Sequence record: AP012529
Direction: 5' to 3' (one strand)
Source of the DNA: Stx2-converting phage Stx2a_F403
Length of the DNA: 63,369 nt
Numbering within the stretch: the stretch's first letter is position 1; every line of letters starts with the position of its first letter. The position numbers are program-made. Shown here one piece after another: positions 48,001 to 60,000 of the stretch.

Positions 48001-51000
48001 CACATTCTGACCCTGCTCCGGCAGGGTTTTTTGTTATCCAGGGGGCCATTATGGGTGGAAGTAAAGGCGGTGGTGATACCAAAGTAAAACCAACAGCAGC
48101 GCAAATAGCACAGGAAGAAGTGGCCTGGAAAGGGTGGCAGGATTACAAAAATATCCTCCGCCCGGCTGAAGATAACTTCATGGAAAAGGTCGATGACCTG
48201 AACAGTGAGCAGCAGTACGACAATATTGCTGGCACCACAAATCTGGGGTATCAGAAACAGTTTGGCGAAGCACGGAAGGAGCTTGCGGGTAATCTTGCTC
48301 AGTCCGGCGTTGACCCATCCAGTGGTCGTTTTAATGCGGTAATGAATGCGAACCAGAGTGACCAGGTAACCGGGCAGATTGACACAACCACACGGGGGCA
48401 GGTATCGCAGGCAGATAAGTATGTTGCCGGGCTACAGGATGTTGCTGCTCTCGGTTCTGGTCAGAAGGCGGATGCGTTACAGAGTTTTAACTCTCTGGCA
48501 GACAGCAGTCTGGCAAAAGCTAAATCGGATGCACAGGCGGCGTTTACGAAACAGCAGGGGCGAGCCTCTCTTGTTGGCGCTGGTCTGGGTGCGGCAGGTG
48601 CATATGCGATGCATAAGGCTGGCGGTAGCGGAGGAAGTGGCGGTGCTAAAACACCTGGCACCGGCGCTAATGCCATTCAGCATCAGGCTCAGAACTGGAG
48701 ACTGTAATTATGGAGTATGGCAAATACGAAACTCTCGCAAGGGCTGGTTATTCAGGAGCAGACCGCCCACAGGGTGACTGGCAGACGTCAGCAGCGCTGA
48801 CACGCCAACAATACGACGACTGGCGAACCAGATATTTGCCCCGCGTGGCAAGGCTGGCTGACCTTGGGGAGAACAACAGTCTGATGAATGCACAGCTTGC
48901 ACGGGTGGGAGGCCTTGCCACTTCCAGTCTCCGTACAGCGCAGATGGCGCAGGATAACCAGATGGCGAGATACGGGGTAAACCGCCCGGATAATCCCGAC
49001 AGTAATACGCTGGGGTTACGTAATGCCCTGGCAATTGCTGGCGCGAAAAATGGTATCCGTGAAGCCGAACAGGATCGCCAGATGAATATTCTGACGGGGG
49101 CTTCTGCACCGGCAAGACAGAAACTGAGTGTTGGCGGCCAACTGGTGGCAGCGTAAGGGGGCAATATGGGATACGGTTTACTGGATATTGCAAATCAGTC
49201 GCGGCGTGAGGCATTACAGGGAATAAGTGACGCAGACAGACGACGTGAAGAAATTGAGGCTGCGAACAAACAGATGGCGGCGCAACAGAAAGCGCAGAAC
49301 AAGCAGAATATCGGTACGGGCATTGGTACGGGGGCGGCTATTGGCGCATCCGTTGGTGGTCCTGTTGGTGCTGTTGCTGGAGCAGTAATTGGCGGCATTG
49401 CTGGTTCTTTGTTTTAAGGAGTGGTGAATGAGCGGATTTGCACAGGGGTTACTTGCCGGATTCAGCACCGTTGACCAGGCAATGACCCGTCGTAAGGAGC
49501 TTGGTCTGCGTGAAGCACAGCTTGCCCGGCAACAGAAAAATAACGAGCGCGATTTTGAGTTTGCGCAGTCTCAGTTTGAACATAATAAAAACGTTGATCA
49601 GCGGAACTTTGATTACAGAGCCAAAGTTGACGACCGTAATTATGCACTGAAGGAGAGGGAGTTTAACGCTAACCAGAATTACCGGAATGCGTCACTGGGT
49701 ATGGAGCAGCAGCGACTCCAGTTGCAGAAATACAACCAGCGACGGCTTGAGTATAACGATATGATTGCCCATAGCCAGCCACTAATGGAAGCGCTTGGAA
49801 AAGCAATTGAGGCTGGCGATCAGGAGGCTGCAACGCGTCTGTTCGGGCAGCTGCCAAAGGGACATCCATTAATTCTTATGTCAAACGAAGGCTATGCAGC
49901 GAAAGCGGGTCAGGCCGTGATCAACCTGCAAAAAATCTTTGGTGATAAGCCGGACATGGCGATCGATTCGCTGAATACCCCGGAAAATCTCGATGTGCTT
50001 TCCGGCGTGTTTGCCCCGGAACTACAACAGCGTATTGGCATGCCTGATTCAACCGGGGACAAAACGATAAAAGAGGCCAGGATTGGCAGTATCGTACCAG
50101 CGCAGCAGGAAGGGTACGTACTTATTGGCCTTGATCTCACATACAGCGATGGCTCCACCGCGCATAAACCTGTAACAGAATACGGCAGTGCGCACCCTGA
50201 TGATCAAACCGTGCTGGCGATACCCGTTGATAAGGCTATCGCTCAGGTCAGGGATCGCAGCAAATTTGCAGAGATATCGAAAAATTATGGTTATTTTATG
50301 CCGAAGCAGCAGGGACTTTCTCTGAAAGAGCTTCAGAAGGGGGCCAGCAACGTAGCGGCGGACGCGATCAAGAATGGCGGTAATGCTCAGGCTGCGGTGG
50401 ATGAATATTATGCTGCGACTGGTTCACAACCGCATCAACAGAAAATTCAGCAACAAAAACTTCAGCAACAGGTTATCAACTGGGCGGGAGATGATCCTGA
50501 CAAGCTGTCATTTGCCAGAAATGTAGCGGCCCGTCAGCCTGAAATGCTGGAACCTCAGAATCAGAAATTGCTGGAGAACGGGTATGCGAATTTTCTCCGT
50601 ATTCAAAAGGCCAGGGGGGAACAGGCCAGAGATGAAAGTGCTTCATCTGCATCTCAGTTTATCCGTGGACTGAAACAGAATTACGCCCAGTAATTCACGA
50701 TATTCCATTAATACCATTTCCTGATGCCCGGCCATTGTGCCGGGTTTTTTTATGGAGTCTGTATGGCCTATTCAGAGGAACAGCGTCCTGAGGCGCAACT
50801 CGGTAACCAGAATCGTAACAGCCTGAACATTCAGCAACCCGGCGAAACTGACAGCTATGAAGCATTTTTCTCTGATCCGAATCGCTGGAAGGATAACAGT
50901 ACGTCGTTCAGCCTGGGCGATGTATTGCCAACAATGGGTAAAGGTTTCGCCCAGTCCGTCCGGGGAACAGGGGAAATGGCCCGTGGACTCGGTGATGCGA

Positions 51001-57000: not shown

Positions 57001-60000
57001 TCGGCGGACGTGAAAGCAGGCAGGCCATGGGGCGTGCATCCCGGGCACAGTCTCCGTCCACTCAGGCGATACAGGACCTGAGCGAATCGCTGATCCGCCA
57101 TCGCAAAAACGAAGTGGGTAACGCCTTCCTGAAACTGGTGCAGGATAATCCCGACAAGGATTACTGGCAGGTATTCACCGATGACAGACCGGATACCATG
57201 CGGACGATTGCAGAGCGCAAGGACCAGGAAACTGGTGAAACCATTCGCGAAGTTGTCGAACGCCCTGTACCGATGGCAATGATGGCAGACCGGTACTTCA
57301 CCACCAAAAAGAACGGCAAAACGTACTACATCAAACTCCATGATCCGCGCCTGATGCGTGCGATGAAGAGTATGGGACCGGAAACCAGCAATGCCTTTGT
57401 TCGTACGCTGGGGAAAGTTAACCGCTTCCTGGCAACGGTGAACACGTCGTATAACCCGGAATTCCTGGTCAGTAACTTCATCCGTGACGTGCAGACGGCG
57501 GTGATGAACCTGAAGGCGGAGCAGGGAAGGAGCGACGGTAAACTGAAAGGGCTGGATAACTTATCCGCCCTGGCTGTGGTGAAAGACAGCCGTTCTGCCA
57601 TGTCAGCCGTATACGCCAGTCTGCGTGGTAAAACCCTCACGGGAAAAGGTGCACAGTGGCAGAAGGTGTGGAAAGAGTTTGTTGAGGACGGAGGGAAAAC
57701 CGGCTGGTTTAACATGGGTGACCTTGAAGGCCAGCAGAAGGAAATGGATCGCCTTGTCTCACTGGCGAAGGGGGGATGGAAAGGCCAGAGTATCGGTGCA
57801 TGGAATTCGTTCCTTAACCTTGTCGAGGATGCCAACGGTGCGGTTGAAAACGCTCTGCGTCTTTCTGCCTATAAGCACGCCCGTGATGCCGGTTTGTCAC
57901 GCCAGCAGGCGGCGTCTCTTGCCAAAAACATGACGGTGAACTTTAACCGTCGTGGTGAGCAGGGGGCGCTGATGAATTCGCTGTACATGTTCGCCAACGC
58001 CAGCATTCAGGGAACGGCAAATCTGGTGAGAACGCTCGGACATCTTAATGGTGAGGGACCTTTACTGGAGCGCCTTCGCTGGAAGAATCTGAATGTTCCG
58101 CAGAAAATCGCGCTTGCCGCTGTGGGAGCAGGTTATCTGCTTGGCTCGCTTAACCGCAGCGTGGCGGGTGAGGATGATGACGGGGTTAACTGGTATGACA
58201 AGGTGCCGTCTCATGTGAAAGAGCGTAACCTCGTCATTATGAAATCGGTGTTCGGGGGCAAGGCCGGAGAGTACTGGAGTATTCCTCTGCCTTACGGGTA
58301 CAACGTTTTCTTCCTGCTCGGGCATACTGCTGAAGGTGTGGCGGCGGGTGACCTGACGGCGTCCCGTGCTGCCGGTAATGTTGTTGGTGGTGTGCTTGGT
58401 GCATTCAGCCCGATTGGCAGTGAGACGTCGGAAACACTGTCCGGGGCATTGCTGAAAAATGCAGCGCCGACCATTCTGCGTCCGTTTGCGAACCTTGCCA
58501 TGAATGAAAACTTCATGGGGGCGCAGATTTACCAGGAGAACATGCCGTTTGGTACACCAAAACCTGACAGCCAGCTGGGAAGACGTTCAACGCCAGAAGC
58601 GTACAAGGCGTTTGCATCCTGGCTGAATGCGTTCTCAGGTGGCAGCCAGTACCGTCCCGGCGCGGTGGATATCACACCGGAATCGCTGAAATTCTGGATT
58701 GACTATATCTCCGGAGGGACAGGGCGCTTCATTTCCAAAACCACGGATGCGGCGGTGAAATCGCTGAATGGTATTGATATACCGGAACAGCAGGTGCCCT
58801 TCCTGGGGAAAATTTCGGGGGAGGTGATGCCGTATGCAGACCAGCAGAAGATGTACGACCGGATGACAGAGATTGCGCAGTATCACGCAGAGCTGAAGAG
58901 TCTGACCGGTGCAGAAAGAACGGCGTTCATTGACGAGAACAACGGAAAATTGTCGATGAACGGGCTTATGCAGGATACCCGGAAGAGACTGAAGGATTTG
59001 CGTAAACAGCGTGATGCCATTTACGCCGACAGTACTCTCAGTCTGGCGCAACAGTCGGCGATGGTGAAATCGGTAGAGCGGGATATGAAAATTGCCGTGG
59101 ATCGGTTTAACCGCGAGTACAACAAAAAAGTGGGAGTGGATTAACAGAAATGGCCCCGTACGGAAGTGCGGGGCTGATTAAGAAATAAACACTCATTGAC
59201 CTGTAATAACCGGAGCTATTAACATATAGTCAGAAGAGCATTTCATGTGATACAGAGAGCCGATTTATGTTTAATGAAGAAAAAGTTGCGCAAATGGCAG
59301 CGTATTTGCTGAAAAAGCATGGCGGATCTATGCGTTTCATTAAGCTGAAGCAGCAACGGTAATGGCGAATAGCATTTATGAGCAAAATAATCTTGATATG
59401 TTATTAGGCGATCTGATGTAACCGGGATGATGTTCACCCCTTATCGCCGGGGAACAATACCGGCAATCAGAATTGCGGATGGAACTATTCAGGCCCACGA
59501 TGATATCGATGAGGAGTTTTTTCAGCCAGTATTGGATGGCTTTCTTATATCCAAATATACGCCATTTGACATCCTCCACGCCCTGAAGGACGGGGTTTTA
59601 CAGCGCACCGGATAAGATTCGGTGTTTTGTTGAAAAATACTGTGATAACAAACAGAAAACCCGTCAGTAAGACGGGCTTAGCAAGCTGGGACGGTTACTT
59701 TAATAATTTCAGTGCCTTTACATCCACTTCAACACTGCTCAGGTCTTTATCAATTTCACCCTCAATTCTTACTTTGTCTTTCGGAGAAACATTCTGACCG
59801 GCCCATATGCTGTCATCGATATCCGTGACAATTGTCCCGCTATTGTCACGAAACTCATAACGTTCATCACCCACTTTTTTAACGATGCTCCCTTCAAGGA
59901 TAACCCATGCATCATCCTTCAGTTCTTTTGCCTGCGCTACTGTTGAACGCTCTGCTTCAGGCCCTTGGAAACCGCCCTGCTGTGCAAAAGCGCCAAAAGA

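What the first reader, a model, noticed from the sequence alone, without database searches (positions are those of the whole stretch)
50763..59144. Giant 2790-aa protein with two zincin-like HExxH motifs
The largest gene in the window is one uninterrupted reading frame at the end of the virion module. It contains HEWFH (54612..54626) and HEIIHH (55413..55430), each in a context compatible with a metallopeptidase-like active site, plus a Gly/Ala-rich N-terminal region. Giant multidomain 'polyvalent' proteins in phages and conjugative elements are thought to be injected with the DNA to counter host defences. Its domain content would say what this toxin-converting phage delivers into the cell.
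Basis: partly seen in the sequence, partly recalled or inferred. Interest (0 to 1): 0.55.

Follow-up and report, generated by a model that had tools for sequence, protein, structure and literature searches.

The report
Giant virion protein with two metallopeptidases
The largest gene of this Shiga-toxin phage (933W type) encodes a 2,793-residue protein that is packed inside the virus particle and carries two intact-looking zinc-protease domains plus an RNase-like domain. It belongs to the already described class of phage 'polyvalent' ejection proteins, so the kind is known, but what its proteases cut has never been tested.

Summary
There is one ORF (ATG 50763 to stop 59144, 2,793 aa), with HEWFH at aa 1284 and HEIIHH at aa 1551; about 0.035 HExxH are expected by chance. 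The window is phage 933W and the gene is L0134.

The 97%-identical phi24B orthologue is abundant in purified virions, and both motif peptides were detected there. Iyer et al. (2017) described this protein class, so the kind is known.

What this analysis adds:
- A conserved core of 'MPTase-2 + ~900-aa C-terminal module' shared by giants of Vibrio, Burkholderia and Ralstonia podoviruses.
- A Cys-free five-gene ejection cassette.
- A short [F/Y]-S-[K/R] motif that marks module boundaries family-wide and may be an autoprocessing site.

Function is still inferred.

The parts
50763..59144 (+). Giant polyvalent/ejection protein gene (933W L0134), 2,793 aa plus stop, no cysteines
50726..50752 (+). Terminator-like hairpin and T-run between the 421-aa gene and ATG 50763. 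It overlaps the longer annotated start at 50724.
50763..52082 (+). N-terminal module (aa 1-440), Gly/Ala-rich. Weakly hydrophobic, almost uncharged stretches at aa 182-200 and 407-426 (Gly-zipper-like). aa 161-408 are shared with the Vibrio phage D62 giant.
52083..53462 (+). Acidic, Pro/Gln/Glu-rich, low-complexity linker (aa 441-900) with no family match
53469..54362 (+). LPD5 block (aa 903-1200; Pfam LPD5 covers 1051-1200). Conserved IxDFGxxxxGAxK start and an R1175/N1179/R1182/G1184 motif.
54330..55112 (+). MPTase-1 (aa 1190-1450), a zincin/gluzincin domain that includes Pfam LPD1 (aa 1361-1440) as its Glu-helix half. NCBIfam CLCA_X covers aa 1182-1437.
54612..54626 (+). HEWFH (H1284, E1285, H1288), followed by invariant D1291 and preceded by invariant H1263
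54885..54908 (+). Invariant E1375...R1379...E1382 helix, the candidate third metal ligand of MPTase-1
55170..55832 (+). MPTase-2 (aa 1470-1690), HExx(x)H-type zincin of a very large polyvalent-protein family. No Pfam model matched it above threshold.
55413..55430 (+). HEIIHH (H1551, E1552, H1555, H1556). It can be read as HExxH or as the family's HExxxH.
55575..55604 (+). AGEFLAHMAE helix (E1607 99% and E1614 83% conserved), the candidate third ligand of MPTase-2
56010..56279 (+). MuF-C / PBECR RNase-like domain (aa 1750-1839). Family-conserved H1752, H1801, N1812 and S1816 are retained. It contains no HExxH.
56418..59141 (+). Conserved C-terminal module (aa 1886-2793), shared with giants of Vibrio, Burkholderia and Ralstonia podoviruses and always at the extreme C-terminus. 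Holds LPD38 (aa 2476-2681) and uncharged Gly-rich stretches at aa 2400-2553.
55104..55115 (+). Junction motif 1, FYSR (aa 1448-1451), at the end of LPD1 and 102 aa before the MPTase-2 His
55797..55808 (+). Junction motif 2, QYSR (aa 1679-1682), 129 aa after the MPTase-2 His and before MuF-C
56397..56408 (+). Junction motif 3, YYSR (aa 1879-1882), between MuF-C and the C-terminal module
48051..50693 (+). Four upstream Cys-free genes (218, 148, 83 and 421 aa). With the giant they form a five-gene internal-virion cassette that is syntenic in Vibrio phage D62. Their phi24B orthologues are detected in virions.

Best explanation
L0134 is the large internal virion ('ejection' or 'pilot') protein of 933W-type short-tailed phages, built as a polyvalent protein.

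**Shown:**
- It is made as one Cys-free 2,793-aa chain.
- The 97%-identical phi24B orthologue is abundant in purified virions, mostly at very high apparent mass.
- The chain contains two different zincin-type domains with complete metal and catalytic residue sets, a PBECR (MuF-C) RNase-like domain, LPD5, and a C-terminal ~900-aa module.
- MPTase-2 plus the C-terminal module together form the conserved core of homologous giants in other ~60-kb podoviruses.

**Inferred:**
- On infection the protein leaves the capsid through the tail ahead of the DNA, unfolded. The complete absence of cysteine fits passage through the oxidising periplasm.
- The Gly-rich, weakly hydrophobic N- and C-terminal modules help to build or anchor the envelope-spanning conduit together with the four co-encoded small proteins.
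- The central enzymes reach the cytoplasm.
- MPTase-2 always sits just before the C-terminal module and is bracketed by a conserved [F/Y]-S-[K/R] linker motif. I take it to cut the chain in cis at these module boundaries after ejection.
- That cleavage would release the LPD5/MPTase-1 unit (an endopeptidase of lethal-factor/MtfA-like fold that also exists as a standalone mobile-element protein, so is probably aimed at a host or rival protein) and the RNase-like domain.
For: **Identity and domains.**

**Virion presence.**
- phi24B gp47 has 746 PSMs in the batch sample, second only to the capsid protein.
- It peaks in the first gel slices (EA1805-1809), above the 80-kDa portal slice.
- Peptides come from all regions, including both HExxH peptides.
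- gp47 is absent from the cryo-EM maps and the authors propose an ejection role.
- The Bcep22-type homologue and its upstream neighbours are also virion-associated by MS.

**MPTase-2.**
- 8,636 family representatives.
- H/E/H/E are 98-100% conserved and 170 of 186 segments are HExxxH.
- Zincin-like secondary-structure order in the model, and zincin-enriched weak hits.
- hhalign to the N4 vRNAP C1 HExxH subdomain gives probability 90.9%.

**Conserved core and cassette.**

**Ejection-protein analogy.** The Burkholderia and Ralstonia homologues carry an N-terminal SLT lytic transglycosylase domain. From my own recollection, not checked here, T7 gp16 also starts with such a domain. N4 vRNAP has the same order of parts: membrane-active NTD, payload, HExxH subdomain, ~110-kDa C-terminal domain.

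**No cysteines.** 0 Cys in 3,663 aa of the cassette against 28 in 3,350 aa of neighbouring late proteins. N4 ejection proteins are also Cys-free.

**Junction motif.**
- FSR is the most enriched of all 8,000 tripeptides in the windows flanking MPTase-2 (10.6-fold, p 3e-31).
- There are sharp peaks at -100..-80 and +120..+160 from the first His.
- The motif also marks the MuF-C, LPD1 and C-module edges.
- It is absent around the C1 subdomain of the unprocessed N4-type vRNAPs.

**Standalone LPD5-MPTase-1-LPD1 genes.** They lie in non-virion mobile islands and end 8-10 residues after the equivalent motif.
Against: - No enzymatic, ejection or processing experiment exists for this protein.
- In phi24B virions the protein is mostly very large, with only a smear of smaller species. 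The capsid protein smears too, so there is no sign of discrete processing in the particle.
- Tryptic peptides show the three junction motifs intact up to the Arg. Read-through peptides are not in the stored table, even for control sites, so cleavage after the motif can be neither shown nor excluded.
- Only about one third of family domains carry the strict motif in each flank.
- In the MPTase-1 model, 'GVAFY' is a terminal beta-strand, so the motif could be structural.
- N4 vRNAP works unprocessed although it has the related HExxH subdomain. ArdC's metalloprotease activity was dispensable for its known function.
- Fold evidence for MPTase-2 alone is weak (best Foldseek E 0.08).
- No strongly hydrophobic transmembrane segment is present, so membrane activity is a guess.
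Confidence: 0.6

Rival explanations
1. The metallopeptidase digests peptidoglycan cross-links, so that the ejected conduit can cross the cell wall. This is the phi24B preprint's reading.
For: - Ejection proteins must cross the murein layer.
- Homologous giants of Burkholderia and Ralstonia phages carry an N-terminal SLT lytic transglycosylase that 933W lacks, so some other wall-opening activity might be needed.
- The preprint proposes this role.
Against: - The preprint assigns the peptidase to MuF-C, which is a PBECR RNase-like domain and holds no HExxH.
- The MPTase-1 block also exists as a standalone gene in non-virion mobile islands.
- MPTase-2 coexists with SLT in BcepMigl and UAM5, so it is not a substitute for it.
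Confidence: 0.1
2. The HExxH domains bind metal but no longer act as proteases. They would serve as folding, packaging or regulatory modules, as the CTD of N4 vRNAP does, and the giant would be purely a structural ejection protein.
For: - N4 vRNAP is packaged and used unprocessed, and its CTD regulates the polymerase and is needed for encapsidation.
- ArdC E229A kept its function.
- gp47 is mostly full-size in virions.
Against: - The general-base Glu, both His and the distal Glu are 98-100% conserved across hundreds of lineages at 50% identity or less. This is more than a structural metal site needs.
- Module-boundary motifs flank the domain, but not in N4-type proteins.
Confidence: 0.17
3. 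It is a DarB-like antirestriction protein that modifies or shields the incoming DNA. This is the PHROG 10089 label, also used for the Bcep22-type homologues.
For: - PHROG 10089 matches with E 1.5e-25.
- The BcepMigl and UAM5 giants, which share the C-terminal module, carry Eco57I-type methylase and helicase domains.
Against: - The match covers only aa 2351-2681, which is LPD38.
- No methyltransferase or helicase domain is found in the 933W protein at Pfam E<=1.
- The shared part is the chassis, not the DarB-like payload.
Confidence: 0.04
4. Both peptidases are effectors against host or rival-element proteins (defence systems). No autoprocessing takes place, and the whole chain acts intact.
For: - Iyer 2017 lists this as one option.
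- The standalone MPTase-1 block has nothing to process.
- Lethal-factor-like fold.
Against: MPTase-2 holds a fixed position next to the C-module in four phage lineages, and conserved linker motifs lie on both of its sides. This points to a cis role.
Confidence: 0.09

Closest known systems
Phage-type polyvalent proteins (Iyer, Burroughs, Anand, de Souza, Aravind, J Bacteriol 2017; Pfam LPD1-LPD40, MuF_C)
   Same: - One giant chain combines unrelated domains and is encoded at the end of a virion module.
- It holds LPD5, LPD1, MuF_C and LPD38.
- Both MPTase types fit descriptions in that paper: His at the strand-2 end plus Asp three residues after HExxH, and the HExxxH set.
   Different: - The paper does not mention 933W in its main text.
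- It treats LPD1 as a separate unknown domain. Here LPD1 is the Glu-helix half of MPTase-1.
- It reports no junction motif in the main text.
Phage phi24B gp47 (bioRxiv 10.64898/2026.04.10.717836)
   Same: 97% identical orthologue. It is abundant in virions, invisible in cryo-EM maps, and proposed to be an ejection protein.
   Different: The preprint calls MuF-C the metallopeptidase and infers peptidoglycan digestion. The real HExxH domains lie at aa 1190-1450 and 1470-1690 and were not identified there.
Coliphage N4 virion RNA polymerase gp50 (3,500 aa)
   Same: - Giant, Cys-free, capsid-packaged third ejection protein, invisible in virion maps.
- Same order of parts: membrane-active NTD, payload, HExxH subdomain C1, then a ~110-kDa C-terminal domain.
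- MPTase-2 is related to C1 (hhalign probability 90.9%).
   Different: - The payload is an RNA polymerase, which 933W lacks.
- The 933W C-terminal module shows no detectable homology to N4 C2 (probability 3.5%).
- N4-type proteins lack the flanking [FY]S[KR] motifs and are used unprocessed.
'DarB-like' giants of Bcep22/BcepIL02/BcepMigl/JC1 (Lessievirus) and Ralstonia GP4-like phages (Gervaisevirus)
   Same: - Last gene of the virion module of a ~60-kb podovirus with 933W-like head genes.
- Virion-associated by MS.
- Shares an MPTase-2-type domain followed by the C-terminal module with LPD38 (27% identity over about 900-970 aa).
- No cysteines.
   Different: They carry an N-terminal SLT, an Eco57I-type methylase, a helicase, and PBECR1 or LPD3. 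They have no LPD5/MPTase-1/LPD1 block and no MuF-C.
Anthrax lethal factor / Pro-Pro endopeptidases (M34) and MtfA (M90) gluzincins
   Different: Sequence identity is 12-15% and there is no sequence-level family match. MPTase-1 has an extra invariant His (1263) and Asp (1291).
ArdC C-terminal metalloprotease domain (R388; PLoS Genet 2020)
   Same: A gluzincin HExxH + Glu domain inside a protein that acts on arrival of a mobile element in a new cell. Metal ligation was solved crystallographically.
   Different: It is a conjugative-plasmid protein with an ssDNA-binding N-domain. No substrate was found, and the protease was dispensable in the assay used.
Dipeptidyl-peptidase III (M49) HExxGH / EExxAE signature (from memory, not tested here)
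   Same: Most members of the MPTase-2 family have HExxGH followed by (E)ExxAxxAE. The extra residue between the two His ligands is the same as in DPP III.
   Different: No sequence or fold match to M49 was seen in any search, so the resemblance is probably convergent. 933W itself reads HEIIHH.

Membership tests
Zincin/gluzincin metallopeptidase: MPTase-1 (aa 1190-1450) | HExxH on an 'active-site helix' | tested here: met
   HEW[FWM]H is invariant in every homologue that covers it. It lies in helix 92-113 of the model.
Zincin/gluzincin metallopeptidase: MPTase-1 (aa 1190-1450) | Third ligand (Glu) on a downstream 'glutamate helix' | tested here: met
   E1375 and E1382 are invariant and lie in helix 184-202 of the model. 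Which of the two is the ligand is not resolved.
Zincin/gluzincin metallopeptidase: MPTase-1 (aa 1190-1450) | Zincin fold (mixed sheet before the active-site helix) | tested here: met
Zincin/gluzincin metallopeptidase: MPTase-1 (aa 1190-1450) | Binds Zn and hydrolyses peptide bonds | not testable with these tools
   No biochemical data were found.
Zincin/gluzincin metallopeptidase: MPTase-2 (aa 1470-1690) | HExxH or HExxxH on a helix, plus a distal Glu | tested here: met
   H1551 98%, E1552 100%, H1555 100% and E1607 99% conserved in 186 segments. The motif lies in helix 73-92 and the Glu in helix 132-145 of the model.
Zincin/gluzincin metallopeptidase: MPTase-2 (aa 1470-1690) | Zincin fold | tested here: inconclusive
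Phage-type polyvalent protein (Iyer 2017) | Several unrelated effector-type domains in one polypeptide, including LPD families | tested here: met
   LPD5, LPD1, MuF_C and LPD38 all score above the Pfam cut-offs, plus the two MPTases.
Phage-type polyvalent protein (Iyer 2017) | Encoded with virion genes and packaged in the particle | tested here: met
   Gene context. phi24B virion proteomics of the 97%-identical orthologue.
Phage-type polyvalent protein (Iyer 2017) | Delivered into the host cell with the DNA | not testable with these tools
   No ejection assay was found. The preprint only proposes it.
Podovirus ejection protein, large class (T7 gp16 / N4 gp50 type) | Part of an operon of internal virion proteins, and present in virions but not in the ordered structure | tested here: met
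   Five-gene cassette, syntenic in Vibrio phage D62. All five phi24B orthologues have peptides in virions, though the 86-aa one only in trace (6 PSMs). gp47 is absent from the maps.
Podovirus ejection protein, large class (T7 gp16 / N4 gp50 type) | Sequence homology to T7 gp16 or N4 gp50 | tested here: inconclusive
   Only MPTase-2 matches N4 C1 (probability 90.9%). The C-module against N4 C2 gives probability 3.5%. T7 gp16 was not compared.
Podovirus ejection protein, large class (T7 gp16 / N4 gp50 type) | Cell-wall hydrolase domain | tested here: not met
   There is no SLT or other murein hydrolase family in the 933W protein. SLT is present in the BcepMigl and UAM5 homologues.
DarB-like antirestriction protein | DNA methyltransferase and helicase domains | tested here: not met
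   None at Pfam E<=1. The PHROG 10089 match is confined to aa 2351-2681.
NCBIfam NF041907 'CLCA_X family protein' | Score above the curated cut-off (260 bits) | tested here: not met
   149.8 bits over model positions 3-245 of 250. It is related but not a member by NCBI's criterion.

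The most novel reading that the evidence does not exclude
The short h-[F/Y]-S-[K/R] motif marks the boundaries of MPTase-2, MuF-C, LPD1 and the C-terminal module across this protein family. It could be the autoprocessing site of a 'self-dismantling' injected polyprotein.

Under this reading, the chain travels through the tail as one Cys-free thread. The C-terminal module stays with the envelope conduit. MPTase-2 then cuts at the junctions and releases an LPD5/lethal-factor-like protease and an RNase-like effector into the cytoplasm.

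That would turn the 2017 autoprocessing hypothesis for polyvalent proteins into a defined mechanism that can be tested by mutation, in the main group of Shiga-toxin phages.
Probability: 0.3. Interest if true: 0.65.

Novelty: already known. Interest (0 to 1): 0.37.

Why it matters
933W-type phages are the main carriers of stx2. How they enter new E. coli hosts decides how new EHEC strains arise.

This protein takes up 13% of the genome and is among the most abundant virion components, yet databases list it as 'hypothetical' or 'LPD5 domain-containing'.

Placing both peptidase domains correctly has three practical results:
- It corrects a misassignment in the only experimental paper on the protein.
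- It separates a conserved chassis (MPTase-2 + C-module) from a swappable payload.
- It gives precise residues (H1284/E1285, H1551/E1552, three junction motifs) for testing whether polyvalent ejection proteins are autoprocessed after injection. That question has been open since 2017.

None of this changes the classification. It is a member of a known class.

Tried and rejected
1. **Homology of the C-terminal module to the N4 vRNAP C2 domain.** hhalign probability 3.5%, and hmmsearch found nothing. Rejected.
3. **Sequence and profile searches of the whole protein, A1 and A2 against PDB sequences.** Only noise.
4. **Pfam on unassigned slices.** Only sub-threshold Gly-zipper and Peptidase_M76 hints.
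5. **The two MPTases as duplicates of each other.** hhalign probability 4.4%. They are different clades.
6. **'MuF-C metallopeptidase' and 'DarB-like antirestriction' labels.** Not supported by domain content.
7. **Processing in virions from the phi24B supplement.**
   - The stored peptide table is pooled, not per gel slice.
   - The N-terminal peptide is not present.
   - There are no read-through peptides at any [FY]SR site, including controls.
   - Result: inconclusive.
8. **His oxidation on the HEIIHH peptide as a sign of metal binding.** The same modification is reported on unrelated His peptides, so it is not informative.
9. **Literature search for '933W' + 'L0134'.** Found nothing. The 2025 EHEC-phage proteomics paper does not discuss this protein.
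10. **A strong transmembrane helix.** None at Kyte-Doolittle >=1.5. Only weakly hydrophobic Gly-rich stretches are present.

Full report
**What is there.** The + strand holds one uninterrupted ORF ending at 59144. HEWFH is at nt 54612-54626 (aa 1284) and HEIIHH at nt 55413-55430 (aa 1551). With 1.3% His, only 0.035 HExxH are expected by chance. The DNA is 100% identical to gene L0134 (ST933Wp72) of Stx2 phage 933W, and 185 phage records carry it at 90% identity or more. RefSeq starts the gene at 50724. That ATG overlaps a terminator-like hairpin at 50726-50745 followed by a T-run. ATG 50763 has GGAG 7 nt upstream. The 13 extra residues would also add two cysteines to a protein that otherwise has none. 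I therefore number from 50763.

**Domain map.** Pfam finds LPD5 (aa 1051-1200), LPD1 (1361-1440), MuF_C (1750-1839) and LPD38 (2476-2681), all far above threshold. NCBIfam's CLCA_X model covers aa 1182-1437 in one piece, below its cut-off. PHROGs give only families of unknown function, plus 'DarB-like antirestriction', which matches aa 2351-2681 only. The first ~440 aa are Gly/Ala-rich. aa 441-900 are an acidic low-complexity linker. No strong transmembrane helix exists. There are weakly hydrophobic, almost uncharged Gly-rich stretches at aa 182-200, 407-426, 2400-2422, 2449-2467 and 2504-2553.

**First HExxH (MPTase-1).** A homologue search with aa 1040-1850 returned 437 proteins. Every one that covers the site keeps HEW[F/W/M]H, down to 33% identity. 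In an alignment of 25 sequences the invariant residues are H1263, H1284, E1285, W1286, H1288, D1291, E1375, R1379 and E1382. The last three lie inside Pfam 'LPD1'. This is the pattern Iyer et al. describe for a widespread phage-type MPTase, with a His at the end of strand 2 and an Asp three residues after HExxH.

**Second HExxH (MPTase-2).** The word-seeded search found few distant relatives. I therefore built a profile of aa 1470-1700 with ten distant homologues and ran it against 1.84 billion representatives. It matched 8,636 proteins at E<=0.001 and 4,769 at E<=1e-10. Nearly all are giants of 1,500-6,000 aa, often with 2-4 copies of the domain.

In 186 segments, H1551 is 98% conserved, E1552 100%, H1555 100%, E1607 99% and E1614 83%. 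170 segments read HExxxH (mostly HExxGH) and 13 read HExxH. This is the 'HEXXXH' set of Iyer et al.. 933W's HEIIHH can be read either way. The AF2 model (pLDDT 78.7, above 90 over most of the core) has the order helix, three strands, active-site helix, further helices. Its best Foldseek hits are individually weak but enriched in zincins: lethal factor (probability 0.69), MATCAP, selecase, jannalysin and M32 carboxypeptidases. Profile-profile comparison links it to the HExxH subdomain C1 of N4 virion RNA polymerase (probability 90.9%, E 1e-6). It is not close to MPTase-1 (probability 4.4%). Pfam returned no match over this domain in three relatives.

**Other domains.** MuF-C is, according to Iyer et al., a PBECR RNase-like domain. 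The 933W copy keeps the family's conserved H1752, H1801, N1812 and S1816. It contains no HExxH.

**Is it in the virion?** The phi24B orthologue gp47 is 97% identical over its full length. In the 2026 preprint's proteome table it has 746 PSMs in the batch sample, second to the capsid protein (1,674). The portal has 101. Per residue, gp47 is about twice the 12-copy portal, which is a crude spectral-count figure of my own. In gel slices ordered by size it peaks in the first slices (2,188, 1,686, 1,187 and 1,260 PSMs), above the 80-kDa portal slice, and then tails off. Peptides come from all regions, including GNGPGALAHEWFHSLDNYFGR and (LR)HEIIHHAMEHVVTPAEYQTIIK. The authors could not see gp47 in any map and propose that it is an ejection protein. 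They call MuF-C a metallopeptidase and infer peptidoglycan digestion, which the domain analysis above does not support. The four genes upstream (218, 148, 83 and 421 aa) are also detected in phi24B virions, the 83-aa one only in trace.

**Relatives in other phages.** The last ~900 aa recur at the extreme C-terminus of giant last-genes of the virion module in ~60-kb podoviruses:
- Vibrio phage D62: 3,066 aa, 41% identity.
- Ralstonia UAM5: 4,387 aa, 27% identity.
- Burkholderia BcepMigl: 4,658 aa, 27% identity.

The Burkholderia and Ralstonia proteins start with an SLT lytic transglycosylase domain and carry methylase and helicase domains. From my own recollection, not checked here, T7 gp16 also begins with a lytic transglycosylase domain. 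The JC1 homologue and its upstream neighbours are virion-associated by MS, and Bcep22-like head genes are homologous to 933W's.

All four giants have an MPTase-2-type domain just before the C-terminal module. In 36 database giants with both parts, the module always ends the protein (median 2 residues after it). The 218/148/83/421/giant cassette is syntenic in Vibrio phage D62. By contrast, the LPD5-MPTase-1-LPD1 block is mobile. It also occurs as standalone ~480-aa proteins in small islands with integrases, HTH regulators and nucleases, without virion genes.

**No cysteines.** The five cassette proteins have 0 Cys in 3,663 aa, against 28 in 3,350 aa of the neighbouring late proteins. The Vibrio, Burkholderia and Ralstonia giants also have none. 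So do N4 gp50, gp51 and gp52, and 30 of 36 related giants. I read this as adaptation to unfolded passage into the oxidising periplasm. That is an inference.

**A junction motif.** [F/Y]-S-[K/R] occurs five times in the protein against 1.3 expected. Three copies sit at module boundaries: aa 1448-1451 after LPD1, aa 1679-1682 after MPTase-2, and aa 1879-1882 before the C-module.

Across 197 MPTase-2 domains the motif forms two sharp peaks relative to the first His. There are 61 hits at -100..-80 and 55 at +120..+160, with almost none inside the domain. The surrounding sequence is unconserved, polar and Gly/Pro-rich. In an unbiased ranking of all tripeptides in these flanks, FSR comes first (10.6-fold, p 3e-31), followed by LFS, FSK, FSQ, KFS, RFS and YSR.

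The motif also peaks before and after MuF-C, at the N-edge of the C-module, and at the end of LPD1. Standalone LPD5-MPTase-1-LPD1 proteins end 8-10 residues after the equivalent 'GVA[LI]F[TA]K'. N4-type vRNAPs, which are packaged unprocessed, lack it around their C1 subdomain. Iyer et al. proposed autoprocessing by MPTases but describe no site in the main text.

Caveats:
- Only about a third of domains have the strict motif on each side.
- In the MPTase-1 model 'GVAFY' is a terminal strand.
- The sequences are not independent.
- phi24B peptides show the motifs intact up to the Arg but cannot report on the bond after it.

**Interpretation.** The best-supported reading is that L0134 is the large ejection protein of this podovirus lineage, built as a polyvalent protein. 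It has a conserved chassis (N-terminal module, MPTase-2, C-terminal module) and a swappable payload. In 933W the payload is LPD5/MPTase-1 and a PBECR domain.
- Presence in the virion and intact catalytic signatures are shown.
- Ejection, membrane activity, proteolysis, self-processing at the junction motifs and any anti-defence role are inferred.
- The peptidoglycan-peptidase and DarB-like readings are poorly supported.
- A non-catalytic, N4-like structural role for the HExxH domains cannot be excluded.

**Novelty.** The class (Iyer 2017), the Pfam families, the RefSeq name and the virion location of the orthologue (2026 preprint) all exist already, so the finding is already known in kind. The additions here are the correct placement of both peptidase domains, LPD1 as part of MPTase-1, the conserved MPTase-2 + C-module core and its link to N4 C1, the Cys-free cassette, and the junction motif. 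The last of these is the only part that might be new biology, and it is unproven.

Noticed in passing
window 50724-50765: The RefSeq/GenBank start (ATG 50724) overlaps a terminator-like hairpin (50726-50745 plus a T-run). ATG 50763 has a GGAG Shine-Dalgarno. The 13-aa extension would add 2 Cys to a Cys-free protein. The annotated start is probably wrong. The hairpin may stop lysogen-expressed lom/bor-region transcripts from entering the giant gene.
   Followed up: partly
window 48051-59144: All five genes of the post-lom cassette (218, 148, 83, 421 and 2,793 aa) encode proteins without any cysteine, against 28 Cys in 3,350 aa of neighbouring late proteins. The same holds for N4 gp50/51/52 and for 30 of 36 related giants. 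This may be a usable signature for finding ejection proteins.
   Followed up: partly
window 55104-55115, 55797-55808, 56397-56408; family-wide in proteins P0143-P0288: A short [F/Y]-S-[K/R] linker motif brackets MPTase-2 and marks other module boundaries. FSR is the most enriched of all 8,000 tripeptides in the flanks (p 3e-31). The motif is absent around the related subdomain of N4-type vRNAPs.
   Followed up: partly
window 49166-49417: The 83-aa protein annotated 'bacteriocin' is a Gly-zipper protein (Pfam Gly-zipper_YMGG, E 9e-6). It has a syntenic homologue in Vibrio phage D62 and trace peptides in phi24B virions, so it is more likely a small membrane-active virion or ejection component than a bacteriocin.
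   Followed up: partly
window 49428-50693: The 421-aa protein directly upstream has no Pfam match. Its phi24B orthologue has 179 PSMs in virions and is labelled 'transcription factor?' there. It has a weak homologue upstream of the Vibrio giant, and the Vibrio protein in turn weakly matches the N-terminus of the protein upstream of the Ralstonia giant. It is a candidate periplasmic-tunnel ejection protein.
   Followed up: partly
phi24B preprint 10.64898/2026.04.10.717836 (orthologue of window 56010-56279): The preprint calls MuF-C a metallopeptidase and bases a peptidoglycan-digestion model on it. MuF-C is a PBECR RNase-like domain with no HExxH. The true HExxH domains lie 200-550 residues upstream.
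   Followed up: yes
window 57813-58805 (aa 2351-2681): The PHROG label 'DarB-like antirestriction' reaches this protein only through the shared LPD38 region. The label should not be transferred, because 933W has no methylase or helicase.
   Followed up: yes
phi24B supplementary proteome (peptide HEIIHHAMEHVVTPAEYQTIIK): Oxidation is reported on His 1, 5 and 6 of the peptide, which are the putative metal ligands. Metal-catalysed oxidation would be interesting, but His oxidation is also listed for unrelated peptides, so it is not specific.
   Followed up: partly
records AP004402.1, AP005153.1, HM208303.1 over the giant ORF: Older records split the region into 19 'hypothetical proteins' or annotate antisense ORFs inside it (vb_24B_50c, 51c, 52c). 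These are most likely annotation artefacts of a very long ORF.
   Followed up: no
L007/L008/L009 (8001-9431 etc.) and L010 (8001-9455): Standalone LPD5-MPTase-1-LPD1 genes sit next to a cpYpsA-domain gene and an HHH_3 gene (L007-L009), or next to an LPD3 protein, a SNIPE/T5orf172 nuclease, RhuM and an integrase fragment (L010). These are small mobile islands of unknown function.
   Followed up: no
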